Both the position numbers and the translations under genes were made by a program. A stretch of DNA of 63,222 nt, filler included, from Chrysochromulina tobinii (Eukaryota): assembly GCA_001275005.1 (NCBI GenBank). It is 6 parts of 6 records of this genome, joined end to end, with 100 filler letters (N's around TTAATTAATTAA, not from the genome) between each part and the next. Parts side by side here need not be neighbours in the genome. Positions count along the whole stretch, not along the records: positions 1 to 12,625 come from JWZX01000569.1; positions 12,726 to 21,792 come from JWZX01000571.1; positions 21,893 to 40,892 come from JWZX01000572.1; positions 40,993 to 50,557 come from JWZX01000573.1; positions 50,658 to 57,599 come from JWZX01000574.1; 1 more part is not named here. One strand, given 5' to 3'. Below are positions 7,664 through 57,100 of the stretch, piece by piece; position 1 is the stretch's first letter; the number at the start of each line of letters is the position of its first letter. The notes beneath the pieces are model-generated. The model searched no databases. It saw nothing but the letters and a program-made list of their open reading frames with translations, and was not told where the DNA came from.

Positions 7664-9345
7664 CTAGCCCGGTGGAGCGCCCTTCTTACCACCGGGCGCG
7701 TCCTTACATAGCCGATCGTACACGGCGTAGCTGATGCTCGTCGCTGGGAGTACCTTGAGCAGATTGGGGAGCAGCCCCTGATAGAGCGCGCTAAACCCTC
7801 CCGCACGGACCGCCTGCCGGACGACGTCGAGCGGGCCGGCGTACTCGGTCGTACCGGGCATTCCGGAGGCCTGCAAGCGGGTGCGCACCAGGTTGATCGG
7901 ATAGGTGCACAGCATGGCCATTGTCGAGGAGATCATTCCGCACGCGAGCACCGCGCTCACGCCCGGCTCCTCCCCCCGCGCCGAGTAGACTCGGGACGCG
8001 ACGTCCTTTAAAGCCGAGTTCACAGCGAGGTCGATCCCGGCGTAGGGCACGATGCCGATGACGGAGGTGCCAAGCCCCTTGTAGAGAGCGCCCACGCCCT
8101 CACGCTGCACGACCGAGCGCAGGCAGTCGAGAAGACCCGCGTACACGCCCGGCGCCGCGATCGCCAGCCGTGTCTTGCAGATCTCAAGGGGGTACACGGC
8201 CACCTGGCCGATCGCAAGCAGTGGCAAGCAGTGGCAATCAGTGGCAATCAGTGGCAATCAGTGGCACTCAGTGGCACTCAGTGGCAAGTGGGTACACGGC
8301 CACCTGGCCGATCGCCATCAGTGGTCATCAGTGGTCATCAGTGGTCATCAGTGCTCATCAGTGCTCATCAGTGCTCATCAGTGCTCATCAGTGCTCATCA
8401 GTGCTCATCAGTGCTCATCAGTGCTCATCAGTACACGGCCACCTGTCCGATCGCCCCGGCCCCTCCGCCCGCGACGAAGCGCTCCGCGCCGGTGGGGTTG
8501 CCGCGGTCGCGCGCGATGTAGCCCTTGAGGAGGTCGAAGCTGATGAACTTGATGGACGTTTCGGGAGCGATCTTGAGCACGTTGGCCGTGTTGCCGCGGA
8601 AGAAGGCGCTCATGCCGCCCTCAGCATAGATGCTACGAAGCCCGGCGAGCATGCCTCTCGATGGCTGGCCTGGCGGCGACGCTTGCATGAGCGTTTTCAG
8701 TCGATCGAGTGGCGCCGTCGCGGTGCGGCTGATGCCGCCGGCAACGGAGCCCGAGTACGCCTTGAACGCGAGGGTCGCCAGCAGAGTCTTGCGCTCGCTG
8801 CTGCTCACCACCTCGGCCGCGGGCGAGTACTCTGACTGGGAGCCTTCAACGTAGCCCATGCTCAGTGCCTCGAAGGTCGCCTGCGGATTGACCGCAGGCA
8901 GCAGCAGCAGAAAGAGGCAAAAGTTCTCGAAGGGGATGACGCCATCGCTCTCCTCCTGCGCCTGATTAAGGAGCGAACGCAGCTGCGACGACGAGATCGA
9001 AAAGCCGAGGTGATGAGCAGCTGAGCGCAGCTCGGCCGCAGTGAGCCGGCCGTCGCCATTTTCATCGACGGTTTGGTAAACGCTTCGGCACTCCTCAACA
9101 CGTTCGATGGCAAATTTGCGGTACTCCTCCTCACCAATGACCCCGTCACCGTCGACGTCGACGCGACGAAAAAATCGTTCGATGTCGTCTTTCGAGCAAG
9201 GCAAGCCTCGCCCCCTCAAGCCTTCAGCGACCTCCTCCTTGGAGAGCGTGCCGCTGCGGCTTGAGTCCAAACGAAAGAACTCGTGCTCAAGCTTTGTGCT
9301 AAGTGTGGGTTCGCCGCGGGTCCTGGGTGCTGGCAGCGGCGACAT
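7664..9345 (-). CDS. Calcium-binding mitochondrial carrier (SCaMC / ATP-Mg/Pi carrier type); exons 9345-8443 and 8203-7664
   Basis: N-terminal EF-hands (DVDGDGVIGEEE, DENGDGRLTAAE) and three carrier signatures PLDRLK, PLEICKTR, PINLVRTR. Removing a phase-0 GT-AG intron (8442-8204) joins the two ORFs in frame (~480 aa). Confidence 0.92.
8204..8442 (-). repeat. Intron filled with 10-bp tandem repeats (TGATGAGCAC, TGATTGCCAC) and copies of the exon junction
   Basis: Direct reading; GT at 8442-8441 and AG at 8205-8204. Confidence 0.9.
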
Positions 9346-9741
9346 TGTGGCGTTCCTGGGGAACGAGAGATGGAACGAGCACTTCCTGTGAACAGCTGTA
9401 TACTTGAGACTTGCCTTTGAGTCCGTTCTGAGTCCTGCCGTCCGTAAGATTATTCAATCTGGTTACGAAACTTAATTGCCTAATTCGGAAACGGCGTGTG
9501 CTCGCCATTGGTTCGCCAGTGGTGGACTGAAAGTGTGCGCTGACGCTCGAGGGGGTGCAAGCGCCACTGCCTGCGGCGCCACTGCCTGTGCCACTGCCTG
9601 CGGCGTGCACGCGCCTTCGCCTTCGCACGAGCGCAGCGGCAACGCCCAAGACCCCTTTGGAACTTGATGCGTCCGTGCTTCAGTTGAGTGGCTCTCTGTC
9701 GCCACTCTGTCGCAGACACGCCATCTACTCTACCCGACACC

Positions 9742-12174: not shown

Positions 12175-12625
12175 ATGAGTAAACCACCTCCAACATCTGC
12201 TGCGAAGAAGCAGTCGACGCTCGCCGCGCGAACACCATCGCCGTCGCCGCAGGCAGCAGCGGACGCCTCCGGATCATTACCGGAGGCGCCCTCCTCGGGC
12301 TCTTCCAGTATGAGTAAACCACCTCACTCATCCGCTGCGAAGAAGCAGTCGACGCCTGCCGCGCGTGCACCATCGCCGTCGCCGCAGGCAGCAGCGGACG
12401 CCTCCGGATCATTACCGGAGGCGCCTTCCTCGGGCTCTTCCAGTATGAGTAAACCACCTCACTCATCCGCTGCGAAGAAGCAGTCGACGCTCGCCGCGCG
12501 AACACCATCGCCGTCGCCGCAGGCAGCAGCGGACGCCTCCGGATCATTACCGGAGGCGCCCTCCTCGGGCTCTTCCAGTATGAGTAAACCACCTCACTCA
12601 TCCGCTGCGAAGAAGCAGTCGACGC
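12175..12625 (+). repeat. 135-bp tandem repeat (~3.3 copies, cut by the contig end), open as a 45-aa S/P/A-rich repeat
   Basis: Unit starts ATGAGTAAACCACC at 12175, 12310, 12445 and 12580; copies are near-identical. Confidence 0.9.
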
Positions 12626-12725: not shown

Positions 12726-14428
12726 CGCCGCCCCCTCCGTCTTCGCCGCCGCCCTCGCCCTCGCCGCCGCCGCCCTCGCCCTCGCCGCCGCCGCCCTCGC
12801 CGTCGCCTCCGCCACCCCCGAGCCCTCCGCCACCGCGGTATCCGCCGCGGGTTCCCGCAACCTTGCCGCAACGGCCACCGCCGCCCCCGTCTTCGCCGCC
12901 GCCCTCGCCCTCGCCGCCGCCGCCCTCGCCTTCGCCACCTTCTGGAACCAACGGAACCACTGCGCCTTCGCTGCCGCCGCCGTCTTCGCCGCCGCCCTCG
13001 CCTTCGCAACTTTCAGGAACCAACGGAACTTCAGGCACCAACGGAACTTCAGGCACAAACGTGACTCAAGGCTCTTCGGGACCTTCAGGCACCAACGGAA
13101 CTTCAGGCACCAACGTGACTCAAGGCTCTTCGGGAACTTCAGGCACCAACGGAACTTCAGGCACCAACGGAACTTCAGGCACCAACAGAACTTCATTAAC
13201 TCCACCAAGTGCTCCAAGCATCCAAGTCGGCCGCCGTCGTCTTCAGCAAACGTGGCAAGGGCCTACCACAGCAACAACACTGGATCCACTCGATGGTTCC
13301 AATTGCGCTGGGGCTGGGAACTCAACCAATCGGGTCACTCTCACCCTTTATTTCAACACTCCATTGCAAGTCGGACTCTTGCTTCCCTACATCGAAGAAG
13401 TTGTGCTGGCGCTCCCAGATTTCGACCCGAGCAGCCCGATGCGCGCTTGCAGCAACTTATCTTGGCAAGTGCCCGATGTCTCCCTCATCGGCAGCACCTC
13501 GAACTTCAACCTTAGCGGCGGAGAAGGCGGCTCCGAGGCCATCACAATTACTGTGGCCGTCAGCGTGATCGTCCTCTTGGGCTTCTGCTGCTGCTGGTTC
13601 TGGTGCACCTTCAGGGCGGGAAAGCCCTGCTGCTGCTGGTCCTGTGGCTGCTGCTGGTGCTCGTGCACCTTCAGGGCGGGGTTGCCCTCTAATGACCGCC
13701 CCAAGAAGAATACGGCCTTTGTCTTTGCGAAGCCGCATGCTAACACGCCGGCCGTGCTGGAGGTGATCCGGACCAAGTTCGCAGAGCAGGGCATCAAGGT
13801 GCTCAAGGAGGGCGTCGTGACGGGCGAGGAGATGAAGAGCAAGGGCGTACACGACCAGCACTACTATGTCGTCGAGTTCGACCCGGCGACACTCTCGTGG
13901 GCCGACTTCCGCGGCAAGGTTCTTGGGCCGACCAATCCGGCCGACGCGCCGCCAGACTCGCTGCGCGGCATCGTCGCCGCCAACTGGCAGAAGCTCGGGC
14001 TTCAGGCCCCGTGCGATGACAGCGACAACGCGGTGCACGCGTCTGCGTCGCCTTTCGAAAGCCTCGCTGAGCGTACCAATTGGCTCGCTTGCTGCGTGTC
14101 CGACGACCCGTTTGGCAGCGCCCTGCTCGCCAAGGGGGTCCCCGAAGCGACGATCAAGAAGTGGTTCAACGACCCGCATGTGAAGTATGATGACGAGACG
14201 GCAAAGGAGAAGGGCAAGGCCAAGGGCTCGATCTTCGACGCGTTGAAGGATCTGGACCACAAACAGTGCCTCGACAGGTGTGTGGCCATCAACAAGGCAA
14301 GTGCAATGACTGCAAAAGGGGATCAGGTTGAAGATAAGGTTGAAGAGGCAACCCCGTCGCCGCCCCAAGAGATAGAGTTGACGAACCCACATACGGGTGC
14401 CGAGGCCAAGACGATCGTGTACTTGTAA
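12726..14428 (+). CDS. 5'-truncated membrane protein: Pro/Ser-rich and GTNGTS-repeat ectodomain, TM helix, Cys-rich juxtamembrane, nucleoside-diphosphate-kinase-like domain
   Basis: SPPPPS and SGTNGT repeats, RRRLQ motif, TM ITVAVSVIVLLGFCCCWFW, then NTAFVFAKPHA, FRGKVLGPTNPADAPPDSLRG and DNAVHASAS (NDK-type catalytic His). Confidence 0.75.
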
Positions 14429-14954
14429 TAGCTATGCAAAGATACTATCCATTGCATGCCCGTCTTAGGGCGCGGTAACGGTCGGATGCAACTCAGTCGA
14501 CTCAAGGGGGCAACCGGCGAGTCGGGACGGTCTCGCGGATCCCTAAACGCCTAGTAGAGGTTGCATGATGATGTTTCTTTCCGAATGTGGTGGTACCGTT
14601 TCACAGGAGAGCAACGAGCATGGTCTACAAACGGGAGAGGCTCGGCTGTGGCTGTGAGGGCCCTGTGACAAGCATGATTGTGGTCTACAGACGGGAGAGG
14701 CTCGCGGGCTGTGGTCCTGTGAAACGACGTGTCTCCCGTGAGGTGCGCCAGAGGCAGTGCAGTATAGCGTATAGAATGAATAACCGCGGTACGACGTCCG
14801 CAGCGCTCGAGTTCCGGAACGGGCTCCACAGATTGGATTAAGATGGATTGGGTACGAATCTTGAACCGGACCCCACTGCCCACCTCGATGCCCACCTTGC
14901 GTTGCGCGCCCCGCCCATGGCCCCGCCGCAAGCCGAGCGCGCAAGGGCCGCCCG

Positions 14955-16199: not shown

Positions 16200-18421
16200 A
16201 TGAAGTGGGTCAGCAAAGCGCCCTTGCCGACGGTTGGCGAGCCGGGCGAGGTGCGGCTGGTGCCCGAGACGGCCGAGGACCTGTGGCACACGTACAATAT
16301 GCTCGCCATCGGCGATGCCCTCTCCGCGAACACGATCCGCAAGGTGGCCAAGGAGTCGTCCACCGGCTCGGTCGAGAGCCACCGCGTGCACGTGACGCTC
16401 GCCGTGAAGCTGAAGAGCATCGACTTCGACCCCGAGGGTGGCGAGCTGCGCCTCGGAGGTAGCGTGCTCAGCGAGGTGGAGGGCGTACGCCTCGGCTCGC
16501 ACCACACGCTCTCGCTCGAGTGCCATCGGCCCTTCTCGCTGCACAAGGAAGAGTGGGACATGGTCGCCATCGACCGGCTGCGCGAGGCGACCTCGGGCGA
16601 GTGGAGCGGCGCCGACCTTGCGGCCATCCTCATCAAGGAGGGTGCCACGGGCGGCCTCGCCAACGTGTGCCTCATCTCAAACGGCATGTCGATCGTGCGC
16701 GCGAAGCTCGAGACTCCTCCTTTGCCGAAGCAGGGCGACCCGCGCGTGGTGCTCGGAGCGAAAAAGGCGCGCGAGCACTGGTTCAAGCAGGTGCTCGACG
16801 CGGTGGTGCGCCACGTCGACTTCGGCACTGTCAAGTGCCTCGTGCTCGCAGGGCCAGGCTTCACCAAAGACGCCTTTTACGAGTATGCTGATTGTCGCTG
16901 ATTGCCATGAGGGCCGCGGGTGACGAGTGCGCGCGCGTGCCTCTTTCAGGTACGCGATGGTTGAAGCTCAGCGGCGCGAGATGCGCGAGCTGCTCGCCTC
17001 CCAGACCAAATGGGTCCTCGTGCATGCAACCTCGGCTTACAAGTACACGCAGCCACACTCACGCCCACGGATGGCCCCGGATGGTCGCCTCTGATGACCT
17101 CTGATGACCCTCTGATTGCACTCACGCCCACGGATGGCCCCGGATGGTCGCCTCTGATGACACTCTGATGACACTCTGATTGCACTCACGCCCACGGATG
17201 GCCCCGGATGGTCGCCTCTGATGACACTCTGATGACACTCTGATGACACTCTAATGGCCCCGGATGGTCGCCTCTGATGACACTCTGATGACACTCTGAT
17301 GACACTCTAATGGCCCCGGATGGTCGCCTCTAATGGCCCTCTGATGGCCCTCTGATGGCCCTCTAATGGCCCTCTGATGACACTCTGATGGCCCTCTAAT
17401 GGCCCTCTGATGACACTCTGATGGCCCTCTAATGGCCCTCTGATGACACTCTGATGGCCCTCTAATGGCCCTCTGATGACACTCTGATGACACTCTGATG
17501 GCCCTCTGATGACCATTTGATTGCAGATGATTAGCACTGATGGTCCCTGATGGCCCATAATGGTCCCTGATGGCCACTGATGGTCACTGATGGCCACTGA
17601 TGGTCACTTGATGACCACTGATGACCACTGATGACCACTGATGGCCACTGATGGCCACTGATGGCCACTGATTGCTGCGGATGGCGCCTGATGACGATCG
17701 AGCGCCTCCCGCATCCACTGATGACCTCTGATGACCACTGATGACCACTGATGGCGATCGAGCGCCTCCCGCATCAGGCACGCGCTCAAAGAGATCTTCG
17801 CCGACCCGAGCGTCGCTACACGCGTGAGTGACACGCGGGCGATGGCGGAGGTGCTCGTGCTCCGACAGTTCTTCGAGATCTGATGAGCTCTGATTGCCTC
17901 TGATGACCTCTGATTGCATCCCTCATCAGGTGCTCGTGCTCCGACAGTTCTTCGAGGCGATGGCCGACAAGCCTGACCGCGTCACGTATGGCCTGCGCCA
18001 CGTGCGCTACGCCACCGAGCAGGTCGATGGCCCTCCCCCCCCCTCCCCCACCCTCCCCCACCCTCCCCCACCCTCCCCTGTCAACCGCTCAAAGACTCAC
18101 TGCGCCACGTGCGCTACGCCGCCCGCCGAGCAGGGCGCCATCGACCGTCTGCTGCTCGCCGACACCCTCTTCCGCGCGCAGCACGTACAGCGGCGTGCAC
18201 AGTACGTGGCCCTCGTCGAGGCCGCGAAGGCGGCTGGCGCGGCAGTCCACATCTTCTCCGATCTGCATGCATCTGGCGAGCAGCTCGCCGGGCTCGGGGG
18301 CGTCGCGGCGCTCCTTCGGTACCCAATGCCGCAGCTCGACGAGCTCATGCAGGAAGAGAATGAGGGTGACGTTGGGGAGGGGGAGGATGGGAGCACTGGC
18401 GGGGGGCACACGACGACATGA
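16200..18421 (+). CDS. PELO: Pelota/Dom34 ribosome-rescue factor; exons 16200-16882, 16950-17042, 17778-17850, 17930-18022, 18134-18421
   Basis: GEVRLVPETAEDLWHTYN, TIRKV, LAGPGFTK, VHATSAYKHALKE, DRVTYG, LLLADTLFR and HASGEQLAGLGGVAALLRYP. Four GT-AG introns restore a continuous frame. Confidence 0.93.
17043..17777 (+). repeat. 735-nt pelota intron made of hierarchical 10/11-bp tandem repeats (CTGATGACAC/CTGATGGCCC/CTGATGACCA types) within larger repeated units
   Basis: Direct reading; GT at 17043, CAG ending at 17777. Confidence 0.88.
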
Positions 18422-24543: not shown

Positions 24544-25916
24544 CTACAAGCGCGACCGCACGCTCTGCGTAGAAACCAGCTGCGCCGTCGCAATCTCGTT
24601 CGGCGGCGGAGGTGAGGCGGACCGATTCACGACTCCGACGCCAATCCTCTCAACCCGCAGCCCTCGGGCAGCCACGTCGGCCGGGAGGTACTTGGCGGCA
24701 TTCTCGTCAAAGATGCGCCACAGCTCGGCCACGAAGCGCTCGAAGACGGCCTCGATCTCCGCCTCCGTCGGGTCCGCGTTGGGTGGACCAACGGCCACCT
24801 CACGCCCGATGACGAGCATGGTGTGCGTAGGCAGTGGTGGCCCGAAGGGGAGGCCCCACTTGCCGGTAAAGAGCGGCAGTCCGACACGCAGCTTGCGCAG
24901 CACCCACAGCTGCAGTGTACGCGCGAACCCGAACATCGTGAAGAGCTGATTCTCTCCGAAGCAGTAGGCGGGAACGAGGCTGCACAGGTGTGAATCGGAT
25001 GCACAGGTGTGAATCGGATGCACAGGTGTGAATCGGATCGCCGGGGCAGCCGGTTGGAAGGAGAAGATGAAGGCGAGCCACGCTCGGCAGAGGCGGGCTC
25101 ATGCAGAATTCGAGGCGGGCACATGCAGAATTACGGCTTTCCAGCAGCCATGGCGCAGCGTATGAATCCGAGTCGCTTCTGCACGAAGACCTGCTCCTGC
25201 GTATGGTCAGTGTGCACCTGCTCGTAGATGCCGCCCGGGCACAGGGCCACCGAGCAGCCCTCGGCAAAGCAGCGGCGCATTGTCGGCTCGCTCGCCTCGC
25301 GCCCACCCAGCAGCAGCAGCAGCTCACGCACGACCGGGACGGAGTACAGCACCGAGGCGCCCGCAAGGCGCAGCCGGAACGTGGATAGCGCCGGGTCGGT
25401 GCGGAAGGCGGGCACGCACAGCGCGAGCATGGAGAGTGGGTAGGCGCCGTGAGGGAAAATTGTGAACAAGGCAGCATCGCTGGTGACCAGACGCTCCGAG
25501 ACCGTCGGGTAGGTGTTCTCCGGCAGGCCGTCGAAGCGCATGCAAGAGCGCACGCCGAAAGCACCCAGAACAACCCGAGCGGTAGCACCGAGCACGCGCG
25601 CGACAGTCGTCGAGCCCCACTGGTGGGCCCTGCTCTTGTCGCGCATGGTGAGCACAAACCATGCCGCATAGAGGACGAGTAATCGGCGGAGCACGTAGCG
25701 GCGTAAGCGGTACTCATCTTGAGGCTCCTCGCGTGCCGCAATGCCTCTGCTAAACTGGCGCAAGAGCAGCGGCATAGATGATGATGGTGATGATGCACGC
25801 GAGTGGGAGCAAACCGGCAACCGCGGATCGGTGGGGGAGAGTATGCGCGCGCGCCGCCGCGTGCTCACTGGAAGACGCGGGTCGGCGGCAAGGCCAAGCT
25901 CTCCTCCATGTTTCAT
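24544..25916 (-). CDS. DGAT2: Diacylglycerol acyltransferase type 2 (DGAT2/MOGAT family); exons 25916 (or 25775)-25135 and 24979-24544
   Basis: FPHG, LCPGGIYE and KRLGFIRCAMAAGKP|LVPAYCFGENQLF after removing GT-AG intron 25134-24980. Confidence 0.88.
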
Positions 25917-39054: not shown

Positions 39055-40892
39055 TCGTCGTCGGCGGCGGCGGCGAGCTCAGCGGCGGCGGCGGTGGCCA
39101 TGGCCTTGGGCTGCTCCTTGTGCTGTCATACGCTCTCTACGTGGGCGTCTTCAATTACATGTCCAATCTACCCGCCTCGTCCGAATTCTACCTCCAGGTG
39201 CAGCAGCGCTTCTGGCCGCAGGCCAACATGCTCTGCTGCGTCTGGTTTGCCCTCGGGCTGCGGCAGGTGAGTCTCGTCAATTGCCTCTGATTGCGTCTGA
39301 TTGCGTCTGATTGCGTCTGGTTTGCCCTCGGGCTGCGGCAGGTGAGTCTCGTCAATTGCCTCTGATTGCCTCTGATTGCCTCTGATTGCGTCTGATTGCG
39401 TCTGGTTTGCCCTCGGGCTGCGGCAGGTGAGTCTCGTCAATTGCCTCTGATTGCCTCTGATTGCCTCTGATTGCCTCTGATTGCCTCTGATTGCGTCTGG
39501 TTTGCCCTCGGGCTGCGGCAGGTGAGTCTCGTCAATTGCCTCTGATTGCCTCTGATTACCTCTGATTGCCTCTGATTGCCTCTGATTGCCTCTGATTGCC
39601 TCTGGTTGCGTCTGGTTTGCCCTCGGGCTGCGGCAGGTGGTGAGCGCGCTGCGCCGAGCACCGAGCGTACTGCCACCGTGGGCCCCGATGCTGCCCCGGT
39701 GGGCGTCGCCACTCCCGATGCCGTTGGCGACGGCGGCACTACTCTTCGTGCATGCATCTCACCACTACGACGCCTCCGACATGTCCCGAACCGTCATCTT
39801 CCGAGATTACGGCCTCGAGATGCTCCGAGGCATCCCCGACAAGCCGCGCGTCCTGCTCCTCACCCTGGGTGATGAGGTGCTCAACGCGGCGCGCTACGTG
39901 CACCGGCAGCTCGGCGTGCGCCCTCTGCATGCAAGTGCTCACCACGGCGCCCTCGCGTCTCCCCATAGGTGCTCAACGCGGCGCGCTACGTGCACCGGCA
40001 GCTCGGCGTGCGGCCCCAGCTGACGATCCTCGATCAGAACTACGTGCAGTTCGACTGGTTCGTGCGGCGCATCCGCGGCAAGGGTGAGTACGCGCAGCTC
40101 GAGCTGCCCGGCGTCTCCTACGGCACTGCCAAGGGCGCCTTCTTAATCAGGCAACTCATCGACGCCAATTACGACGGCTGGTCGATCTTCGTCGCGGGTG
40201 GCATGCACACCGCCGACTCGTCCTGGCAGCCCATCGAGGGCTACCCGCAGCTTGGCGGCTACCGTCTCTGGCCGCTCGGCATGGTCATGCAGATCTTGCG
40301 GGTCGAGAGCCGGATCAATCTGGACAAGTGAGGGCTGCTGATTGCGACTGAGTGCGACTGAGTGCGACTGAGTGCGACTGAGTGCACCCTACATCAGGTG
40401 GGCGTCCAAGTCGGAGAAGTTGCTGCCGCGGCTCGAGTGGCCGAAACCACCACCCGTGGGCTCGTGGGAGGAGGTCCTCGCGAAGAACCACTACCTGGCC
40501 GCGTACACCAACCGGCCGTACTACCCACTTCAGTACGCTTACGAGGCGCTGCCGGAGCGCGGTGGCTCGGCGGCGGAAGCGCGCGATCGTTTCTTGTTGG
40601 CCGCTCGGTTGCATGAGGCGTCGCACGACCTGACGCTCAACGGCTCGCGTGCGCTGCCCGACTACTTTTTCCGAAATTGGGGTGAGGGGATCGCGCCCTC
40701 CGATTGCCTCTGATTACCGTTGATGACCTCTGATTGTCCTCCTCATCGGCGTGCTGCAGGCGTCGCGTACTCGCAGCTGCTCGCGACGGAGCGATCGGAC
40801 GAGGGCGTCGCCGCGCTCAAGCAGCGCGCGATGAATGCGTTCCTCAAGTACCTTGCCTTCAGCACACTGACAGAGGAGGATCGGTTCACTGT
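37521..40892 (+). CDS. TMEM260: TMEM260-like (DUF2723) protein O-mannosyltransferase, 3'-truncated; exons 37521-39266, 39637-39876, 39969-40327, 40398-40681, 40760->40892
   Basis: PTVPGGDSGELI...GVAHPPGYPTW, AWRVNLSSA, EVFALNN, LTNQHT, HLLRREYGTFRL and RFWPQ. Four GT-AG introns keep the frame. Confidence 0.85.
39267..39636 (+). repeat. Intron of four tandem GTGAGT...(TTGCCTCTGA)n...exon-end-copy-CAG units
   Basis: Units 39267-39341, 39342-39426, 39427-39521 and 39522-39636. Confidence 0.9.
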
Positions 40893-42629: not shown

Positions 42630-45600
42630 CTACTTAGGAATAGTAAACGAAGCATTGGGCGATTCGTTGGGCGATTCGTTGGGCGATTCGGACGACGAGT
42701 GCACCGCGGCCGCCGCCGCCGCCGCGGCGGTGCGCGCCGTCCAGGGCAGTGCATCGGCATCCACGAGACCGGCCGCGCTGAGCACCGAGCCCATGCCGTC
42801 ACCTGTGGGGGGGAGGGGGAGGGCGCCGTGGTGAGCGCATGCATGCAGCCACGTGAGCACCGAGCGCATGCCGTCACCGCGGCCGCCACCGCCATCGCCT
42901 GCCGCGCGGGGCGCACCGTCCTTGCTGCCCACCACGGCGCCCCGGGAGAAGGAGCTCTTCGCATTCATGCTGCCGCGAAAGGAGCCCTCGCGATCGCCCC
43001 CGGTGGCCGACCACGAGGCGGCAGCGGAGGTCAGGTCGAGGGTCAGGCTGGGGTACGCCCGCGGAGTCGCCGAGGCGGTGGGGGCGCCGTGCTGAGCACT
43101 TGCATGCACGGGGCTGGGGGACGCCCGCGGAGTCGCCGAGGCGGTGGCATGTCGCTCGTCTGTTTCCCCCCCCCAAGCATGCCCACCGTGCACCTTGTGA
43201 TCAGAGGAGAGGCGCTCACCATGGCGCTCGGCCGTGTCCCCCCCCCACGCTTGCCCCCCGTGCACCTTGTGGCCGGCTGTGTGGGCAGCCGAGCGCGCCC
43301 ACGACGGCGCTCCTCCCCGGCCGGACGCGCCCACGACGGCGCCCTCCGCCGCCCACGACGGCGCCGCCTCCTCTCCCTCCTCCTCCTCGTCGTCCTCGCT
43401 CGACGAGAAGCGGGGGTACGACCAGAGCGCCTCGCGCCGGCCCGGCGGCACCGGGGCCATGTAGGAAGAGGAGAGGTGGCGTCGGGTGGAGAGGTGCGAC
43501 AGAGAGTCGTCGCCGCCGTCGGAGAGGTCGGAGGGCGCCCGGGACGGCGCGCCGCTCGGCGCGCCGTAGTCCGCAAAGGTGACGGACTGCGCGTCGTGCT
43601 CGGGTTCGTCACTCTCGGAAAAGTCCTCGGGGGTAATCAGCAGGGTTTCGTCCATCGAGCGCGCGTCGTGCTGGGCGTCCGTCGAGCGCGCCGCGAGCGA
43701 GCGCGCGAGCGAGCGCCACGTGTCCGCGTCGTGTCGGGCGTCGGGCGGCGCGCCCGCGGCGCCTCCCCCCGCGCCGCGCCGTGTTGGGCGCGTCGTGTTG
43801 GGCGCGGTCGCCTCGGTCTCCTCGAGAGGCGACGCGCCGTCGCGGGCGCCCAGTCCGGGCCACCGCTGATCGATCTCATCGGCGTAAGTGAGCCACGCGG
43901 AGCGCTCCGAGAGCAAGTTGCCACTGCCCCACCCGGCGGCCGCGATCGTCGAGCCCGCCCGGCTCTGGCAGCGCCCCTCGCCGCCCAACACGGCGCCGCC
44001 ATCGGGCAGCGGCCCGCTCAAGTGGGCGAGTGTGAGCGCCGTCCCGGGCGCCGTCCCGGGCGCCGTGGCAAAGAAGCGCCCGCCGTGAAAGCTAGGTTCG
44101 TCAGACGCCCTCCTTGTGAACGGCGAGCCGAGCCCTTCCATATTAGGGTCGGGCGTCCTCCTGGTGAACGAGTCGACAGGATGACCCTCCAGAATGTTCG
44201 GCAAGCTGGTCTGCGGGGGCGGCGTGCCGGTAGAGGCGCCGTGCTGGGCGGTCGGGGACGTGTGCGCCAAGGCGCTGGGGGCGCGGGGGGCGCGGGCGAG
44301 GGCGGTGAGGTCGTCGACGCTGTCGTTTCGGCCCGAGATCGGTCGGAAGGCGGCGGTGCCCAAATTAGGAAAGGCGGTCACCAAATTCGGTCGGGTGCGG
44401 AGCGCTGTGGTGAGCGTGGAGGCGGCGCTCCAATCGTGCTGAGAGCCCGCCGAAGAGAGCCTCGGGAGATTGCCTCCGTCATCACGCTGCCTCGGGAGAT
44501 TGCCTCCGTCATCACGCTGCGGTGGCGTCCCATTCCGCTGGGGGGTGACCAGGTAAGCATCCATCGGGATCGGCGAGGTTGGTCGAGATTCCGTGCCGGG
44601 TCGTGACTCGTGCCGTTTCCAGGCATGCTCGCCGGCCTCGCCGAGATCGACCTCGAGATCGGAATCGGCCTCGGAGCCGGGCGAGGAGCGAGGGTGCGTC
44701 GTGAAGACCGAGCGGGTGTCATGGAGCTCGTCATCAGACTCATCAAGATCCATCCAACCCTCGGTATCCTTGAGGCGCCTCCCCGCCGCCGCTAGGGGCA
44801 CAACCCCCCCCCGCACCGCCCCCCAAACCCCCCCCCGCACCGCCGCCATGCCCACGAACGGCGCGACGCACGCCCGACACGACGCGCCGCCGCCGCCACC
44901 ACTTCCGCCGCCGCCGCCCTCGCCACAGCGGCGGGACGAGAGCGGGCCGGTCCGTGACGAGTGCTCACCACGGCGCTGCGGGTCCCACCAGCTAGCGGAG
45001 GCGGAGGAGGCGGGCTCTCGGGCCGCGACGGAGCAAAAGGTGGCGGTGGCGACGCACGCGCCGGCGCCCGCGACGGCGCCGTCCCCCTCGCTGGCCGCCG
45101 CCGCCGCCACTGCCGTCCACGTACCCTGGGCGCCGTGGTGAGCACCTACATGGTCGATCGCATCCGGATCCGCAGTGGTGAAGCTGAAACCACAGCCTTC
45201 CTTCTTTGGGTTGCGCGCCGTTACGGGCACTCGCCCATCCACATCGGGGGAGCGCGCCGAGTTGAGCGCGCCGAGTTGAGCGCCCCCTTCGCTCCCGCGC
45301 CGCTGTAGCGACGGAGCCTCCGCCCGATCCCTCGCGCCCACCACGGCGCCGCCCGCGTCGTGATGAGCGCCCGCCACGGCGCCGCCCGCGTCGTTGCTCA
45401 GGTTGAACTTGCCCAGGGGCGAGGGCTGCTTCGATCCGTTCCCGCTGCCTCCCGCACGCGCGCTCCTGGGCGCCGCGTGCGATCCGCGGTGGGGCAGCGT
45501 GAGCGGATCGACGGTCGGCGAGGCTCGACCGGCGCCCAGTACGGCGCCCAGTACGGCGCCGCCGACGCGGGGGGTCGTGGGGGCGCGCGCCATACTGGGC

Positions 45601-48092: not shown

Positions 48093-49836
48093 ATGGGTCA
48101 ATCCGAGTCCATGCTTGCGATGTGCGGCTCGAGCCGCAGCAAACCCATTACTAAGGACGGCGTCCAGGACGTCGACCTCATCGCAGAAGCCCTCAAGTTC
48201 ATGCGCGGGAAGCACTCGTTTCCAGAAGCCTTTGCGAAGAAGAAGATCATCATGATCCTCTTCGGGCCGCCTGGCGCGGGCAAGGGCTCGCATGGCCCCA
48301 AGATCGTCAAGACCCTCGGCATCCCGCAGCTCTCGACGGGCGACATGCTCCGTGCGGCCGTGGCGGCCGGCACCGAGCTGGGCAAGCAGGCCGACGATAT
48401 GATGAGCAGCGGCGGCTTGGTCTCCGACGAGCTGGTGGTGAACCTCATCAAGGAGCGCATCAAGGAGGCCGACTGCGCCAAGGGCTTCATCCTCGACGGC
48501 TTCCCGCGCACGATGGAGCAGACCAAGATGCTCGACGCGATGCTCGCGTCGAGCGGCGAGAAGGTTGACTACGTGGTGGCGCTCGAGGTGCCCGACGCGG
48601 TGCTCACGGAGCGCATCTGCGGCCGGTGGGTGCACAAGGAGTCGGGGCGCTCGTACCACATCAAGTTCGCGCCGCCCAAGAGCCTCGGCGAGCAGGCGCC
48701 GTCGGTAACGACGATGCTGGACGATGAGACGGGCCAGCCCCTGATGCAGCGCAAGGACGACACCGAGGAGGCGCTCAAGTCGCGCCTCGAAGCCTACCAC
48801 TCCCAGACGGTGCCCATCCTCGCGCACTACGGGCCTGCGGGCATCGTCAAGAAGGTGGATGCCACCGACATGGAAATGACCTCTGAATGGCTCTGAGAAG
48901 GCTCTCAGTTAGCACTGATCGGCCCTGAAGACCTCTTGATTGCATGCCTAGTTGTCAGGTGGATGCGCCCACCGGCCATCCCCGGCCCGGAGGTGCTCAC
49001 CACGACGCCCCATCACTTCCCCACAGGTGGATGCCAACCGGCCGCACCTGGAGGTGTGGAGCTCGATCGAGATCGTCCTCAATCTCGCAGGCAATCTCGC
49101 AGGCGAGAACAAGACGGAGGTCAAGACGGAGGTCCAGAGCGCCTCGGATGCGGTCGTGGCTGCGGCAGCGGCGACCGCCCCCGCCTTAGCCGCCGCCCGC
49201 GACGGCGCCGAAGTGGCGCCCGAGACGGCGTCCGCGGCGGCACCAGAGCCCCTCGACCCTCAAGCAGAGACAGTGGCCTTGCCCGCCCCGAACTCGCAGG
49301 CCGTTACGCCGGCCGTCGTCAAGCCGGCGCCTGGCGGTTGGTTCGGTGGCATCTTTGGTAGCGGCGCAGCCTCCGCCGCCACAGCCACCGCCGCAGCCGC
49401 CGCAACCGGCGCCGCCGCCGCAGAATCCCCCGCTGCACCGCCGACACTCTCAGCAGCGCCAGAGCCCATGCCGGAGCCCCATGACGTGGAGAAGAAGCAG
49501 CGCGCTCACGCCGCAGCGCGTGTGCAGTCCTTCGCGCGCGGCAGGGCTACCCGCTCAAGCCCGATGGCGCTCAACAGGGCGCTCAGGGACAAGCAGCAGG
49601 CGGCCGACGATAAGCAGCAGGCGACCGACGACAAGCCGTCCCAAATTAGGCAATCTGACCCCCCGGAGCCCTCCCCCAATCTCGCGCCCCCCTCACCGCT
49701 GCCCACAGCCCCCCCACCCCCACCCTGTGGTGACGTGTCGTACGACACCGACGAGTTTGCAGAGACCGAAGCGGGAGCGGTGCCCACGACTCCGATTCCG
49801 ACGGCTGCGAAGACCGGCCTGGACGAGCCCGACTGA
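48093..49836 (+). CDS. ADK: Adenylate kinase with a possible N-acylation site and a C-terminal IQ-like motif; exons 48093-48854 and 49027-49836
   Basis: [34 protein letters not shown] and RKDD. Intron 48855-49026 joins [19 protein letters not shown] in frame. Confidence 0.9.
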
Positions 49837-51105: not shown

Positions 51106-54100
51106 GGGCGGCAGCGGCGTCGTCGTGGGCGTCGTCATCATGCGCGTCGTCATCTTGCGCGTCGTCGTGGGCGTCGAGCAGCCGAAGGCCTTCCCACAGC
51201 GACGTGGCCTCGCTGAAGATCAACCCAATCCCAACGTCGCTGTGGGAAAGCCGAAGGCCAATCCCAACGTCACTGTGGCTCTCGGTGCGGCCACTCCCCA
51301 CAGCGGCGTGCGTCCTGTTCACACTGCGCGCATCGGAGGCGCCGGCGTTCACACTGCGCGCATCGGTGGTGCCGGCGTTCGCGTCGGCGGCGGCCGCCAT
51401 CGCGGCGGCAGTGGTGACGGCGGCATCGAGCGCAATTAACGGCCCGAGCCCAAGGCAGCGCTCGTGTTCGAGGGCACGGAGCAGTTCGCGCCATCCGCGC
51501 GCCGCGCACCTGTGGGGAGAGGTGGAGCGCTGTGGTGAGCACTTGCATGCAGAGGGCACGGAGCAGTAGGCGCCGTCCGCGCACTCATGCTGAATTAGGG
51601 AGGCAATCAGATGGCAATCAGTGGCACTCAGTGGCACTCAGTGGCACTCAGAGGCACCTCTCGCACTCATGCTGCCGCGCCGTCAGCGAGCTCGCAAGCG
51701 AGCTCGCCGCTGCCCCATCGAACGTAACGCCCGCGTCGAGGCGCGTCGTGGCGGGCGCGACGAGGCGCGGCGGCGGGGAGAGCGCCGTGGTGGGCAGCGG
51801 CGACGCCCGAGCGAGGAGCTGCGCCTCGAGCTCGATCTCGAGGACGAGATCGAGTTTCGTCTCGATGAGGGTCCGCAGCGCGCCCGCCCATTTGCGCGCC
51901 GCGGTGCTGGCCGCATCGCGCACCTCGGCGTGCGCACGCTGCACCGCCTCCGCCTGCATCAGCATGTGCAGCTGCATGGGAGTGTCGCACAGGAGCAACG
52001 TCGGTACCGGTACGCTCGTGCCGCCGCCCTCGGTACCGGTACGCTCACGAGGGCGCTCAGGCGTCGTGCTGGGCGTTGTGCTTGGCGGCGGGCTGCGTGC
52101 AGGCGTCGTGCCTGGCAGGAGGTCGGGCGGTGTTGGGATGCGCGAGGTGCTCGGTGGCGACTGTAAGGGCATGGAGGGTGGCGACTGTACTCGATCAGGT
52201 GTTCTAGGGGGTGGCACGGACGCCGGGGGCAAGCTCGACGCCGTGTCGGCAACGGTCGATGGCGCCGCCACCTCAACGGCCGCCGCATCAGTGCCCAGGT
52301 CGCGCCCAACACGGCGCTGTGGAGTGGACGGCGGCGTTGCGAGCGCGGCGCCCACGGCAGCGCGCACCAGCGCGGCAGCTCGAGGGCCAGCAGCGTCCAA
52401 CTCGCTGTGAATGAGCCGCTGTGAATGAGCCGCTCCAATGGCGTCCCACTCGCTGCTTGGAGCCAGCCCGGAGGCCGGCCAGGCGCTCGGTACGGCGCTC
52501 GGTACGGCGCTCGGTACGGCGCTCGGCATGACGCTCGAGGCGGCGCTCGGGCCGGCGCTCGGTACGGCGCTGGGGACACGGAAGCCGAGGGCATCAAACC
52601 CGGCTGACGGCGTCACACGCGCGGGCGCGCCGAGATGGGCACCCGGCAGCATGGGAGGTGGCACGGGCGGCAGGCTGCCTGCGGAACTAGACAGCGAAGC
52701 GGGCGAGTTGTGAGCGCCGGGCCCTCCACGCGCCGTGTTGGGCACATTGCGCGCCGTGTTGGGCCTATCGCGCGCCGTGTCGGGCCCATCGCGCGCCGTA
52801 TCGGGCCCCAGGTTGAGCAGCTCGGCCCAGAGGTCGCCCGACGGCCCCCGGGTGTGAATGAGCCTGTGAATCAGGGGCGTGGCGGTGGCGGGGCGCTGGT
52901 CCGCGAGGGCGTAGAGGACGGCGAGCACGAGGGACGCGGAGGCATGGGGAAGCGCGAGCGGCGCGCAGAGCTTGAGGAGGAGCTGGGCGGGCAGCGCGAG
53001 CGGCGCTGTGTCGAGCGCGCGCGCGCCGTCCCTCCAGCCGGCTCGAATGGCGGCGATCAGCCACTGGAGAACCATACGCAGCGTGGCCGGCTCGGAGGTG
53101 AGCACTGCAAGGGGCACCCTTTGGCTGGCCGACGAGCGTGTGATACCGGGCGTCCCCCCCCCACCGGGCATTCCCCCCATACCGGGCGTCCCCCCCCCAC
53201 CGGGCATTCCCCCCATACCGGGCGTCCCCCCCCCACCGAGCATTCCCCCGGCCTCGACATGCAAAGGGGTCGAGAGAGCTTGACAGAGGGACACGAGAGC
53301 CCCCACAGTGTGCGACGCCGCGCAAACCGTAACGCCCGCATCCCCCACAGCCAGGCCGCTTGCACCTGGTATGGGGGGAACGCCCGCATCCCCCACAGCC
53401 AGTCCGCCCACGTCGTCCAGGCCGAGGGCTCCGCCAGCGAGCCACACAGAGTGTGAACGGAGCCACACAGAGTGTGAACGGAGGAGGAGCTGGTCGAGGC
53501 AGTTCAACAAGGGTGCCAGGTTCATCCAGAAGCACGAGGACGCGCCGCTGTCGGGCGCCGTACCGGGCGCCGAGGGGCCCACGCCCTGCAAATGGTCCGC
53601 CGACGAGCTGCGTGAAGGAGAGCCGCCCTTGACCGGAGTGCCCCAAGGAGTGCCTGAACAGGTGGCGCAATTAGGGATGCAATCAGTGGCAATCAGAGGC
53701 AATTAGGGAGGCAATCAGTGGCACTCACCTGAACAGGAGGCGCTTGGCGCATGCAATTAGGGAGGCAATCAGTGGCACTCACCTGAACAGGAGGCGCTTG
53801 GCGCATGCAATTAAGGAGGCAATCAGTGGCACTCACCTGAACAGGAGGCGCTGGGTGAAGCTTCGTGGCTCCACGAGGTGCGCGCGCCGTACTGGGCGCC
53901 CGACGCGGCGCCCGGGCGCGGCAGCTCGCCCGAGTGTCCTCGCGCGCCGTACTGAGCGCTCGACGCGGCGCTCATCGATGGGCGCGGCAGCTCGCCCGAA
54001 TGTCCTCGGGAGTCAGGCGCGGCAAAGGGCGGCAGCTCGCCCGCCTTGAGCTGCGCCTCGATGGAGGCGAGGAGGCGGCAGCCGAGAAGGAGGAGCACGT

Positions 54101-57100
54101 GCGATGTGAGCGCCGGCGTGTTCGCGCGCTCATTAAAGAGGTGATGGAGGAGCGGCAGCAGTTGCCAGCCGTTGGGACGCTCGAGCGAATGACGAAGCAG
54201 CTGAGCGAGGAGACGAAGGCTGAGGCGCGCCGCATGCTCCTGCTCTGCGCCCGCGACGGCGCCCGCATGCTCCTGCTCTGCGCCCGCGACGGCGCCCGCG
54301 TGCTCCTGCTCTGCGCCCGCGACGGCGCGTGCGCTTGGGGGCACGCAGCGCAGCAGTAGACTCACATGGACTCTTCCAAAGTTCACCAGAGGCGTCACCG
54401 AGGCCGCCACCTCGGCGCCCGGTACGGCGCCTGTCACCTCGGCGCCCGGTACGGCGCCCGGTGGTTTCGGAGCGGTAGTGGGAGGGCTGGTGAGCGTCGA
54501 GCCGATACGGCGCGCGACCTCGAAGAGATGAACGACACACAAGCTGTCCTTGAGAAGGAGAGCGGCGCTCAGCGTCCCGTGGTGTGCCCACAACGGCGCG
54601 TGGCGTGCCTGCCCGCCGTGTGTGCTGCTGCTGCTCACGCCGGCGCTGCTCACGTAGGCGATGCCGCCGCTGCTGCTGCTGCCCACGACGGCGCGCCCGT
54701 GTCCATGCGACGTGGGCGCCGTGGTGGGCGCCGATGCGAAGTAGCCGGCGCTCGCCCACATCGCGGCGGAGCTGCGCGGGGCCTCGGTGGAGCTGCCCAC
54801 GACGGCGCGCCCGTGTCCATGCGACGCCTCGGTGGAGCTGCTAGTGCTGCCGCTGCCACTGGCGGCTCCGTAGGCGCCCGCGACGGCGCCGCTTGCCACA
54901 GATGACGGTAGAGGCGGTAGGGGTGGTAGGGATGACGGAGGCAAGGGCGGGGGCGCCGTCTCGGGCGGCAGCGCGGGCGTTGTCGCGGGCGGCAGCGCTG
55001 TCTTTCGCGGCTCGTCCACGTACTTGAGAAGGGCGTGGAGGATGTGGCACTGCACGAGGGGTGGGGCGGCGGGGAGCGCACCGAGCAGCACCGAGGGGAT
55101 GGCCGCCCGAATGAGCTCGAGACGGCGCTCGAGCTCGGGACGGCGCTCGAGCTCGGGAGGGCGCTCGAGCTCGGGACGGCGCCCGTCTGGATCGCTCGTC
55201 GAGGCGGCGAGCTCGGGACGGCGCTCGGTGGCGAGCAGCAGCAGGGCCGTCGCCACACCGAGCGGCTCACTGAGCGGCGCCGTGTTGGGCGCCTGCACGC
55301 GCGTCCAGCTGGGGATGCGGGCCACGAGCCACTCCTCCGCCTCCAGCTCCTCCGCCGCCAAGCTCACCTCGAGCGGTGCCACACGAAAGTAGGCGACGAG
55401 CGCGCCGAGCGCTGCCTCGAGCACATCGGTCGTCAGCGGCGGCGGCGGCGGCACGTCGCGCGCCGTACCGAGCACCTCGGGCGCCGTGTCGAGCACCTCG
55501 GGCTGCAGCTGGGCCAGTAGCAAATGAACGCCGCCTCGTAGAGCAAGCGCGGCCAGCACACGCTGCGCCGTCGGCGGCGCCAACGGCTCTTCTCTCGAGG
55601 CGCGCTCGGGACGGCGCTGGGCCGCCCCCTCTCTCGTGGCGCGCTCGGGACGGCGCTGTGACGGCTCCTCTCTCGAGGCACGCTCGGGACGCCCCTTGGT
55701 GGCGCTCGGGACGGCGCTCCCCCTCCCTCTGGCCGCCGAGACTTCATCCGATCCCGAGAGGGGCGCCGTCCCGGGCAGGGGCGCCGTCCTGGGCAGGGGC
55801 GCCGTCCTGGGCAGGGGCGCCGTCCCGGGCAGGGGCGCCGAGGCAGACGGGCGGCTCGGCGTCGACATGTGACGCGCGAAGGCACCGCCGCCCCCACCCA
55901 ATCTCCCGCCCGCCAGATCACCCCCCTCACCGTCCCCGCGGAAAGTGCCCAACTCGGCGCCACCAGCGCCACCACCACCAGCGCGCGCCGCGTCGTCGTG
56001 GGCGCTCGTCAGCCAAGCTTCGAGCAGCCCAAGGAGCGGCACGCGCAGCAGCGTCGTCGTGGGCACGCGTGTGTCCGTGAGCCACGTCAGCACGAGATGA
56101 ACGTCCGCGTCCGAGGGCGGTAGAGCGCCAGCGAGCTCGGCGAAAGCGAGGAAGACGTTCTTCAACCCAGCGCCAGCGTCCACGCCGCCGCTGCCGCTGC
56201 CGCTGCCGCCGCCGCTGCCGCCGCCGCCGCCGGTGCCGGTGCCGGTGCCGGTACCGGCCTCAGTACTGCTGAGCGCCGTGCTGAGCGCGAGGCTGCGTAG
56301 CCCGTTGAGGAGGAATCGGACGGTGACGTGGGCGCGGAGGGTCGCGCTCGGGACGGCGCTCGGCACGGCGGCCTTGGTGCCCACGACGGCGCCCACGAGG
56401 GGGAGCGGCGAGGTGGGCGCAGATCGCGCCGCGCTCGGTGCGAATCTCGGCGACAATCTCGGTGACAATCCGAGCCGCTCCCCGAGCAATCTCAAGTGGG
56501 CGAGCTGCGCCTCCGGGCACGCGCGCGCCCAGATGCGCAGGTCGCACAGGATGCCGACCTCGAGCTGCTCGGTCAGGTTGGCCTCGGCGAGGGGTGGTCT
56601 CGCCTCTCGCCCTTGATAGCCCACGCTCAGGTCGAGCACCTCGGACCACGCCGCCGGGGCGCCGTGCTGGGCACCGCCCGCGCCACTGGCCGCGCCGTGG
56701 TGGGCGCCGCCCGAAGCAGCGCCGCCGCCCAACACGACGCCGGCGGATCGCTCGCGCACGAGCGCGAGGAGCTCGCGCGTCGCGGTCGCCTCGTCGAGCA
56801 ACGCCGCGAGGTGCTCGACCGCGACGGCGCTCAGCTGGCGGGCCGGCACGCGGAGGAGCAGCCAGCTGAGGAGCGCGGCGCCGTCCTGGGCGGGGCGGGC
56901 GTGCGAGCGCGTTGTAGTGAGCACTTGCAGGCAAGGCAGGTCATCAGTGGCAATCAACGGCAATCAACGAACCTGGTGGAGCTTCGAGCTCGGCCGCAGG
57001 TCATCAGTGGCAATCAGTGGCAATCAACGAACCTGGTGGAGCATGCATGCATGTGCAACGGGGCGATGCCATAATAGGGCGCGAAGCATGCGCAACAGCT

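What the first reader, a model, noticed from the sequence alone, without database searches (positions are those of the whole stretch)
8204..57032. Candidate intron-generating system: introns built from exon duplication plus repeat filler
Seen: in six genes on six predicted transcripts, most reconstructed introns carry copies of the adjacent exon. Copies at the intron start: 17851-17877 = 17930-17956 (27 nt); 39877-39920 = 39969-40012 (44 nt); 42877 onward (~24 nt, 1 mismatch); 48855 (GTGGATGCC). Copies at the intron end: ~18101-18133, 39636 and 53654. Copies at both ends: 8204-8442. The duplicated segment supplies a splice site and the rest is a 10-mer array and/or a shared core motif. Known: duplicating an exonic AGGT can create an intron, Introner elements co-opt target-site duplications, and strand-biased 10-11 bp intronic repeats have been reported in Emiliania. 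Inference: the long, variable (9-44 nt), near-perfect duplications with no terminal inverted repeats suggest ongoing intron gain by staggered-break repair with templated repeat addition, rather than a classical DNA-transposon Introner.
Basis: partly seen in the sequence, partly recalled or inferred. Interest (0 to 1): 0.88.

Follow-up and report, generated by a model that had tools for sequence, protein, structure and literature searches.

The report
New introns from duplicated exon ends
In the haptophyte alga Chrysochromulina, many introns begin or end with an 8-46-base copy of the neighbouring exon around a shared repeat filler, and protein records indicate that close relatives differ in which sites are filled, which likely means new introns are still being made by an insertion process that duplicates its landing site.

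Summary
In this Chrysochromulina window, 9 of 16 called introns (6 of 11 anchored by RNA or homologues) carry exact exon copies of 8-46 nt, against 3 of 240 mismatched pairs. One RNA contig has the exact length expected if three PELO introns are spliced precisely. Gain is recent. Among 27 close carrier records, 12 stop in the intron and 15 read through, four on 6.7-28.8 kb contigs. Relatives also hold a 30-nt-duplication intron in TMEM260 where the window is empty. These alleles are read from proteins, not DNA. Fillers are two shared, sense-strand families, so they are probably copied from existing introns rather than added de novo. The enzyme is unknown; microhomology-guided repair is my best guess (0.5), retrotransposition next. 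It works like an Introner but fails the fixed-TSD and both-ends tests, and a published survey lists C. tobinii with zero families. Against: local duplications also occur outside introns, one filler has 8-nt inverted ends, and only PELO has RNA support. The scan found this before on another piece of the same genome (e1-2577349). New variant; interest 0.75.

The parts
8204..8442 (-). Carrier (SLC25, EF-hand) intron, 239 nt. Donor and acceptor both come from a 24-nt duplicated exon stretch; two CTGA-unit arrays and one internal junction copy. Present in some relatives, absent in others.
16883..16949 (+). PELO intron 1, 67 nt, only 3 nt duplicated; shared by all 7 non-model cluster members fetched
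17043..17777 (+). PELO intron 2, 735 nt, 10-11-mer arrays with own donor and acceptor; copy number differs between assemblies
17851..17929 (+). PELO intron 3, 79 nt: 27-nt copy of the next exon supplies the donor; array filler supplies the acceptor
18023..18133 (+). PELO intron 4, 111 nt: decayed copy (about 30 nt) of the previous exon supplies the acceptor
24980..25134 (-). DGAT2 intron, 155 nt, no exon copy and neither filler family; an internal negative case, present in 14 of 14 non-model members
39267..39636 (+). TMEM260 intron 1, 370 nt: four units of donor + array + 30-nt copy of the previous exon (75, 85, 95, 115 nt); the last copy supplies the acceptor
39877..39968 (+). TMEM260 intron 2, 92 nt: 44-nt copy of the next exon plus motif-B filler; absent in P0313 and P0392, present in P0399
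40084..40113 (+). Empty site in the window: exon stretch that relatives carry twice around a motif-B filler (inferred from proteins read in two frames)
40328..40397 (+). TMEM260 intron 3, 70 nt, array with own donor and acceptor, 3 nt duplicated
40682..40759 (+). TMEM260 intron 4, 78 nt, array with own donor and acceptor
42803..42877 (-). Candidate intron, 75 nt, in frame and stop-free inside a 1732-codon ORF: 24-nt copy of the next exon plus motif B; splicing untested
43055..43148 (-). In-frame insert: 36-nt duplication (one mismatch) around motif B; no GT/GC..AG pair removes the 66-nt unit exactly, one pair removes 75 nt
43194..43265 (-). Candidate intron, 72 nt, in frame, older degenerate duplication; splicing untested
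48855..49026 (+). ADK intron, 172 nt: array-like half and motif-B half in tandem, each starting with a copy of the next exon; absent in P0356 and P0362
51510..51657 (-). Candidate compound intron: array, internal exon copies, motif B; splicing untested
53654..53836 (-). Candidate intron: three units of donor + array + copy of the previous exon; splicing untested
56886..57032 (-). Candidate intron with one internal copy of its own 5' junction, array and degenerate motif B; splicing untested

Best explanation
These introns carry 8-46-nt copies of their own exon around a filler shared with other introns, and they were likely gained recently when a piece of an existing intron was copied into an exon at a staggered break, probably by microhomology-guided template-switching repair. 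Shown: the copies, the two filler families, their sense-strand orientation, exact-length splicing in PELO, and presence/absence among relatives (from proteins). Inferred: (1) a broken exon end at an AG|G site pairs with a real splice junction elsewhere; (2) it copies the 3' half (branch motif and acceptor) or the 5' half (donor and array) of that intron; (3) it rejoins its home template out of register, which duplicates exon sequence; (4) the duplicate supplies the missing splice site; (5) selection keeps only inserts that splice out cleanly or stay in frame; (6) repeated switching gives the nested junction copies. The CTGAT units and motif B likely act as branch points. I put about 0.85 on recent gain with duplication at or near birth, and about 0.5 on the whole statement including the repair route.
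For: Copies far above controls. Carrier: 12 of 12 window-type records stop four residues into the intron, 15 of 15 sister-type records read through, on contigs up to 28,840, 17,563, 16,453 and 6,742 bp; 39 of 41 outgroup records read through and 2 lack the site, contigs up to 35,090 bp. All 12 intron alleles begin with the exon copy, so it dates from near the intron's birth. Reciprocal case: P0394, P0392 and P0313 show exon copy + motif B at 40084, empty in the window, and P0392 and P0313 lack the window's 39877 intron. ADK: 2 of 15 members read through at 94-95% identity. PELO: 27 of 28 aligned relatives read through all four sites, 7 on ENA/Logan contigs over 5 kb. AG|G at 10 of 16 sites. 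Fillers share 37, 35 and 26-nt strings on the sense strand, at most 10 antisense; 52 two-unit array matches in introns, all sense. A CT[GAC]A[TC] motif lies 27-42 nt from the acceptor in 12 of 16 introns. Many other loci share the filler: summed DNA depth 50,820 against about 45, and contigs leave the acceptor into unrelated sequence (the tool warns this is no copy number).
Against: Microhomology at nine independent array joins is 0-3 nt and zero at three: weak. Exact local duplications of 20 nt or more also occur at 17 loci outside introns, so part of the pattern may be a general tendency to duplicate. A two-step path (slippage across an existing junction, then deletion between AG|GT copies) gives the same end state for the 3'-copy introns. 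One filler has 8-nt inverted ends. Five of 11 anchored introns have no copy. Alleles in relatives were read from predicted proteins only. An NCBI gene model splices TMEM260 intron 2 at an inner GT and keeps 13 duplicated residues. Motif-B-like 14-mers also lie in ORFs (21 of 26 matches).
Confidence: 0.5

Rival explanations
1. Retro-Introner: intron RNAs are reverse-transcribed into nicked exon DNA by a non-LTR retrotransposon enzyme (target-primed reverse transcription), which would give long variable target duplications, truncated fillers and concatenated copies.
For: Variable duplication length and strict sense orientation; inserts with a 5' copy end in a conserved acceptor; non-LTR Introners are reported, about 5% of classified cases, one family in Pavlovales. 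Variable TSDs as a mark of this route are recalled knowledge, not from a call.
Against: No reverse transcriptase or LINE found in the window; no genome to search; inserts with a 3' copy end inside the array, not at a fixed RNA end; selection alone explains the orientation.
Confidence: 0.22
2. Two-step history: ordinary short-TSD, MITE-like Introners made the introns, and a general local duplication and deletion process later overwrote their ends with exon copies.
For: Marine Chrysochromulina genomes have Introners, one with a 4-bp TSD; four array introns here have their own sites and 1-3 nt duplicated; 8-nt inverted ends in one filler; duplications at 17 loci outside introns; unit length grows 75, 85, 95, 115 in TMEM260 intron 1, as slippage would give.
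Against: The polymorphic carrier intron has neither its own donor nor its own acceptor, and all 12 filled records start with the copy; the filled allele at 40084 already has the 30-nt copy; older, shared introns show short or decayed copies, the reverse of what later overwriting predicts.
Confidence: 0.15
3. A HUH-endonuclease element (Replitron or Helitron type) mobilises the fillers, as in Chlamydomonas, where insertions at RG targets leave variable-length duplications and fuzzy ends.
For: Replitron-1 inserts in one orientation after RG with variable TSDs, and a Replitron protein was recovered from one locus of C. tobinii; 10 of 16 upstream exons here end in AG.
Against: No shared short terminal direct repeat in the fillers; the paper calls these signatures non-canonical and absent from other families; AG is also what splicing selects.
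Confidence: 0.06
4. One reading: a telomerase-like enzyme adds repeats de novo from a fixed short template at a staggered break.
For: Arrays of 10-11-nt units on one strand.
Against: 21 distinct units among 72; long exact strings and non-periodic ends shared between introns; motif B is not an array.
Confidence: 0.04
5. Assembly or gene-calling artefact.
For: Short-read contigs only; array copy number differs between assemblies; a 46-nt repeat could collapse in an assembly, which weakens P0313 and P0392 as empty alleles; short read-through contigs may be mRNA.
Against: The same copies stand in two other assemblies and one DNA run for PELO; carrier read-through is tied to flanking residues and to contigs of 16-29 kb; ENA-only records include truncated ORFs, so those calls do not skip introns.
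Confidence: 0.03

Closest known systems
Introner-like elements of Polarella glacialis and Symbiodinium (bioRxiv 10.1101/2020.10.14.339549; abstract and sections 4-5 read)
   Same: One or both splice sites recruited from the target duplication; single-orientation classes; families of related introns
   Different: Each class has a fixed TSD of 3-8 nt, and Symbiodinium elements have inverted repeats; here 8-46 nt, variable within one filler family, with nested junction copies
Chrysochromulina sp. and Emiliania Introners (bioRxiv 10.1101/2022.06.06.494994, passages; supplement rows of PMC9860276 and PMC12130899)
   Same: Haptophyte; no TIR; carry one splice site and co-opt the other; one Emiliania family is noted with 10-bp terminal direct repeats
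   Different: Reported TSDs are 2-5 nt; C. tobinii is listed with 0 families; the survey needs similarity near both intron ends, which a locus-specific exon copy removes
Intron gain by tandem genomic duplication of AGGT (review PMC3443670, passages)
   Same: Duplicated exon sequence supplies splice sites; precise or imprecise gain
   Different: There the intron is all duplicated exon; here a non-exonic filler shared across loci lies between the copies, and usually only one site comes from the copy
[quoted passage not shown]
   Same: Direct repeats flank gained introns; polymorphic gains; staggered break proposed
   Different: Fillers there are of no shared family (one mitochondrial); here two recurring families and longer repeats. 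The review warns that short repeats flank old introns equally often in Drosophila (25% against 26% at 5 bp or more)
Replitron-1 of Chlamydomonas (PMC10288648, passages)
   Same: Variable-length TSD, RG target, one orientation, no TIR
   Different: 0.9-3.6 kb elements with a fixed 6-bp terminal direct repeat, not reported to make introns

Membership tests
Introner (DNA-transposon/MITE type) | Related introns at unrelated loci | tested here: met
   Shared strings of 37, 35, 26 nt; motif B 6 matches against 0.01 expected
Introner (DNA-transposon/MITE type) | Similarity reaching both intron ends | tested here: not met
   One or both ends are locus-specific exon copies in 9 of 16
Introner (DNA-transposon/MITE type) | Fixed short TSD per family | tested here: not met
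   Motif-B inserts: 46, 25, 36 and about 30 nt; array inserts: 29, 24, 33, 16 nt
Introner (DNA-transposon/MITE type) | Terminal inverted repeats | tested here: inconclusive
   At background in 16 of 16 intron ends and 7 of 8 fillers; 8 nt in the PELO intron 3 filler
Introner (DNA-transposon/MITE type) | Splice site recruited from the duplicated target | tested here: met
Introner (DNA-transposon/MITE type) | Empty and filled sites among close relatives | tested here: met
   Carrier, ADK, TMEM260, from predicted proteins
Introner (DNA-transposon/MITE type) | Cognate transposase | not testable with these tools
   No genome held
Tandem genomic duplication intron | Intron made wholly of duplicated exon | tested here: not met
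   Non-exonic filler of about 20-215 nt in the copy-bearing introns
Tandem genomic duplication intron | Both splice sites from a duplicated AG|GT | tested here: inconclusive
   Met in the carrier and the 43194-43265 candidate only
Non-LTR retroelement (SINE-like) insert | Variable-length target duplication (recalled feature) | tested here: met
Non-LTR retroelement (SINE-like) insert | Fixed 3' end shared with an autonomous LINE | not testable with these tools
   No genome; no RT family among the window ORFs scanned
Break-repair templated insertion | Microhomology at the joins | tested here: inconclusive
   0-3 nt at nine joins, zero at three
Replitron/Helitron | Shared short terminal direct repeat and Rep partner | tested here: inconclusive
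   No shared terminal repeat seen in intron ends; partner not searchable

The most novel reading that the evidence does not exclude
A transposase-free, self-feeding intron factory: host repair (or a borrowed reverse transcriptase) copies half of an existing intron, a branch-point array with one splice site, into exons, and a long variable duplication supplies the other site. Introns would thus seed new introns genome-wide in natural Chrysochromulina populations today, unseen by Introner surveys because each new intron has a unique end.
Probability: 0.35. Interest if true: 0.9.

Novelty: new variant of a known kind. Interest (0 to 1): 0.75.

Why it matters
Where new introns come from is a long-standing open question, and most recent gains outside Introner species have no traceable source. 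Here filled and empty alleles segregate among close relatives in at least three genes, the footprint (long variable duplication plus shared filler) is readable at each site, and the nearest named species is scored as Introner-free in the largest survey I could read. It would join the duplication, break-repair and Introner models in one culturable alga, where the mechanism can be tested. It would also mean that similarity-based surveys undercount intron gain, and that gene models in this group can wrongly keep the duplicate in the protein.

Tried and rejected
No whole genome was held, so the genome-wide test was not possible. The one metagenome scan went to PELO and gave two assemblies of the same stretch, one 97% strain that does not reach the introns, and two distant hits. 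Motif scans of viral contigs: 0 hits for three array patterns; 1 and 4 hits for motif B, of which one contig end shows the same architecture (34-nt repeat, 10-mer array, motif B, CAG) and three are coding matches without a repeat. The prokaryote scan gave 2 hits, one read and uninformative. RNA evidence for TMEM260, ADK, the carrier and the two unnamed genes is missing; only one stretch was laid. In that call intron 1 of PELO is retained in one RNA contig, while two others stop at its donor. Among 98 cluster members of seven intronless window ORFs, none had a tail that I recognised as filler; about ten had short unexplained tails, so extra polymorphic introns are not everywhere. P0164 and P0165 stop just after a CAG|G site (38232) that is open in the window: a possible further insertion, filler unknown. 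P0022 shifts frame at PELO site 3, unexplained. The triplication in ORF 4056-5264 has no exact splice pair by eye and is shared by all 13 members aligned: rejected as an intron. Four amino-acid differences lie just upstream of the carrier intron, at least one derived in the window: one case, no weight given. The transposon-like piece at 57700-63222 gave no Pfam or PDB match. Literature: ten full-text searches listed no paper on this pattern in haptophytes; I saw only listings for most of them. Hovde 2015 (PMC4580454, passages) mentions introns once, without repeats. Read 2013 was not held. Two papers opened by wrong id were irrelevant. PMC7789003 passages: Amoebophrya introners have 3-5 nt direct and 8-20 nt inverted repeats. 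Supplement files 13-14 of PMC12130899 were not searched, the PMC9860276 file is cut and I saw 32 of 214 places, and bioRxiv supplements are closed; they may bear on novelty.
Full report
Organism and data. The window is eukaryotic, about 64% GC, in six pieces joined by N linkers. PELO hits haptophytes; 90% clusters of window proteins hold Chrysochromulina parva records, and a C. tobinii model matches TMEM260 at 99%. I name it only as Chrysochromulina. No genome was held, so all statistics rest on 16 introns in this window and on proteins predicted from other samples.

The observation. All cited copies are there. I called 16 GT..AG introns. Eleven are anchored: PELO 4, TMEM260 4, ADK, carrier and DGAT2 by open frames and by homologues or gene models. 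Five, in two genes without homologues, are candidates only. Exact duplications of 8 nt or more occur in 9 of 16 and in 6 of 11 anchored, against 3 of 240 mismatched pairs (maximum 8) and 45 of 108,271 random GT..AG pairs. Lengths run from 9 to 46 nt. The copy sits at the 5' end (donor from the copy: PELO 3, TMEM260 2, ADK, 42877), at the 3' end (acceptor from the copy: PELO 4, TMEM260 1, 53654) or at both (carrier, 43265). Four introns hold one to three further copies of their own junction.

Splicing. Three RNA runs and one DNA run were laid on 12730-21790. RNA contig 10 of X15 is 1138 nt; letters 291-1138 lie on 16195-17042, and two more pieces lie on exons 4 and 5. The first 290 letters equal 124 + 93 + 73, the exact lengths of exons 5 (part), 4 and 3, so introns 2-4 are removed at the outer sites; the in-frame inner GT at +6 of intron 3 would give 296. 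The exon 3 piece itself was not listed and the joint table showed only repeat matches, so this is arithmetic, not a listed joint. The same contig retains intron 1; X14 and X16 pieces stop at its donor. DNA contigs run through introns 3 and 4. A C. parva model uses the same first three junctions. No other gene has RNA support here. For TMEM260 intron 2 a rival exists: an NCBI model uses the inner GT at +39 and keeps 13 residues; 17 of 18 aligned homologues have one copy, so the outer site restores the ancestral protein.

Age. Bacterial-style gene calls on eukaryotic contigs stop in introns, so read-through on a long contig marks an empty site; ENA-only records include truncated ORFs, showing that those calls do not skip introns. 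Carrier: of 27 records at 95% or more (15 listed of a 49-member cluster, plus 12 search hits), 12 with the window's residues at 276-286 stop four residues into the intron and 15 with the sister residues read through (Fisher 6e-8, though records are not independent). Four read-through records lie on contigs of 28,840, 17,563, 16,453 and 6,742 bp. N-terminal markers recombine between the groups, which suggests alleles or very close species. Outgroups at 47-72% read through in 39 of 41 records, on contigs up to 35,090 bp, so gain is more parsimonious than loss. TMEM260 is reciprocal: P0313 and P0392 read through the window's 39877 site and then run from the exon into a translation of motif B; P0394 begins with ten residues that match window 40084-40113 in a shifted frame, continues with motif B in the matching frame, and re-enters the same exon stretch. 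Relatives thus hold an intron with a roughly 30-nt duplication at a site empty in the window. P0399 holds the 39877 intron with a changed copy. Collapse of the 46-nt repeat could mimic absence in P0313 and P0392; it cannot create the filled allele. ADK: 12 of 15 listed members carry the intron, 2 read through at 94-95% on 5.2 and 4.3 kb contigs, 1 is unclear; the two may be paralogues. PELO introns are older: intron 1 is in all 7 non-model members fetched, introns 3 and 4 in a diverged relative, and 27 of 28 aligned relatives at 41-62% (of 41 hits) read through all four sites, 7 on contigs over 5 kb. The copy-free DGAT2 intron is in 14 of 14 non-model members.

Filler. Family A is arrays of 10-11-nt units starting CTGA, 21 unit types among 72; 52 two-unit matches in introns are all sense, none antisense, in four genes on both genomic strands. 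Family B is a motif of about 35-50 nt ending in a C-rich tract and YAG; its 24-nt core matches 6 times against 0.01 expected. Introns of different genes share exact strings of 37, 35 and 26 nt, at most 10 on the opposite strand. A branch-like CT[GAC]A[TC] lies 27-42 nt before the acceptor in 12 of 16 introns; calling it the branch point rests on the general YTRAY consensus (recalled) and is untested. Summed DNA depth over the arrays is about a thousand times the unique level, and contigs leave the PELO intron 3 acceptor into unrelated sequence, a hint that the families are genome-wide.

Mechanism. The anatomy is that of an insertion with a long, variable target duplication. The 5'-copy and 3'-copy types are mirror images, which one process explains: a strand end at an AG|G site copies one half of a donor intron and returns out of register. 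Selection then keeps inserts that splice exactly or stay in frame; the 43055-43148 insert, which no GT/GC..AG pair removes exactly, may be such an in-frame survivor. This route is inferred. Microhomology is weak (0-3 nt, zero at three of nine joins). Reverse transcription of intron RNA predicts nearly the same. Later duplication across existing junctions surely contributes to the nested copies, and duplications of 20 nt or more occur at 17 loci in the 58.9 kb outside intron zones. One filler has 8-nt inverted ends, a possible trace of MITE ancestry.

Comparison. Recruiting a splice site from a TSD is the Introner principle, reported in Chrysochromulina with a 4-bp TSD and in dinoflagellates with fixed 3-8 nt TSDs. 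Duplication of AGGT and break repair with flanking repeats are reviewed in PMC3443670. Variable TSDs at RG are known for Replitron-1. The 2025 survey lists C. tobinii with 0 Introner families and haptophyte TSDs of 2-5 nt. So this works like an Introner but fails two defining tests; I do not file it as one. Ten searches found no description of the pattern, within a library that lacks most subscription papers.

Verdict. Real, recent and probably ongoing intron gain with an unusual footprint; mechanism open. New variant of a known kind; interest 0.75.

Noticed in passing
window 12626, 21793, 40893, 50558, 57600: Five identical linkers (44 N, a 12-nt AT spacer, 44 N) split the window into six pieces; adjacency across them is not shown to be real.
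   Followed up: partly
window 57700-63222 (-): Transposon-like piece with a 1357-codon ORF and a second ORF; no Pfam or PDB match, weak DNA-methylase-like lead at 0.78 in the Atlas; 25-mer tandem at 58887-59009.
   Followed up: partly
window 42630-47828 (-): 1732-codon open frame without Pfam match that reads through three duplication-type inserts.
   Followed up: partly
window 26280-37418 (-): 3712-codon intronless ORF with 390-nt internal repeats and C-terminal EF hands.
   Followed up: no
window 4243-4400 (-): In-frame triplication of a short peptide motif in ORF 4056-5264, kept in all 13 relatives aligned.
   Followed up: partly
window 22161-22200 (-): Array of the intron-type units outside any called gene, downstream of ORF 22455-23108 and in its sense; possibly a 3' UTR intron.
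   Followed up: no
window 784-1502, 19618, 44963, 45143: Motif-B core 14-mers inside low-complexity ORFs, 17 sense and 4 antisense; possible in-frame relics or unannotated introns.
   Followed up: partly
window 12175-12625: 135-nt tandem repeat, 3.3 copies, at a piece end.
   Followed up: no
window 39877-39915: An NCBI gene model keeps 13 duplicated residues here, which none of 17 other homologues has; likely a mis-annotation caused by the duplication.
   Followed up: yes
L006 1370-1560: End of a viral contig bears the same architecture with a different 10-mer unit; likely a chimeric eukaryotic tail.
   Followed up: partly
window 48093-49836 (+): The spliced ADK has a long low-complexity tail (523 aa), whereas the two intronless relatives stop at 267 aa, so they may be paralogues.
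   Followed up: partly
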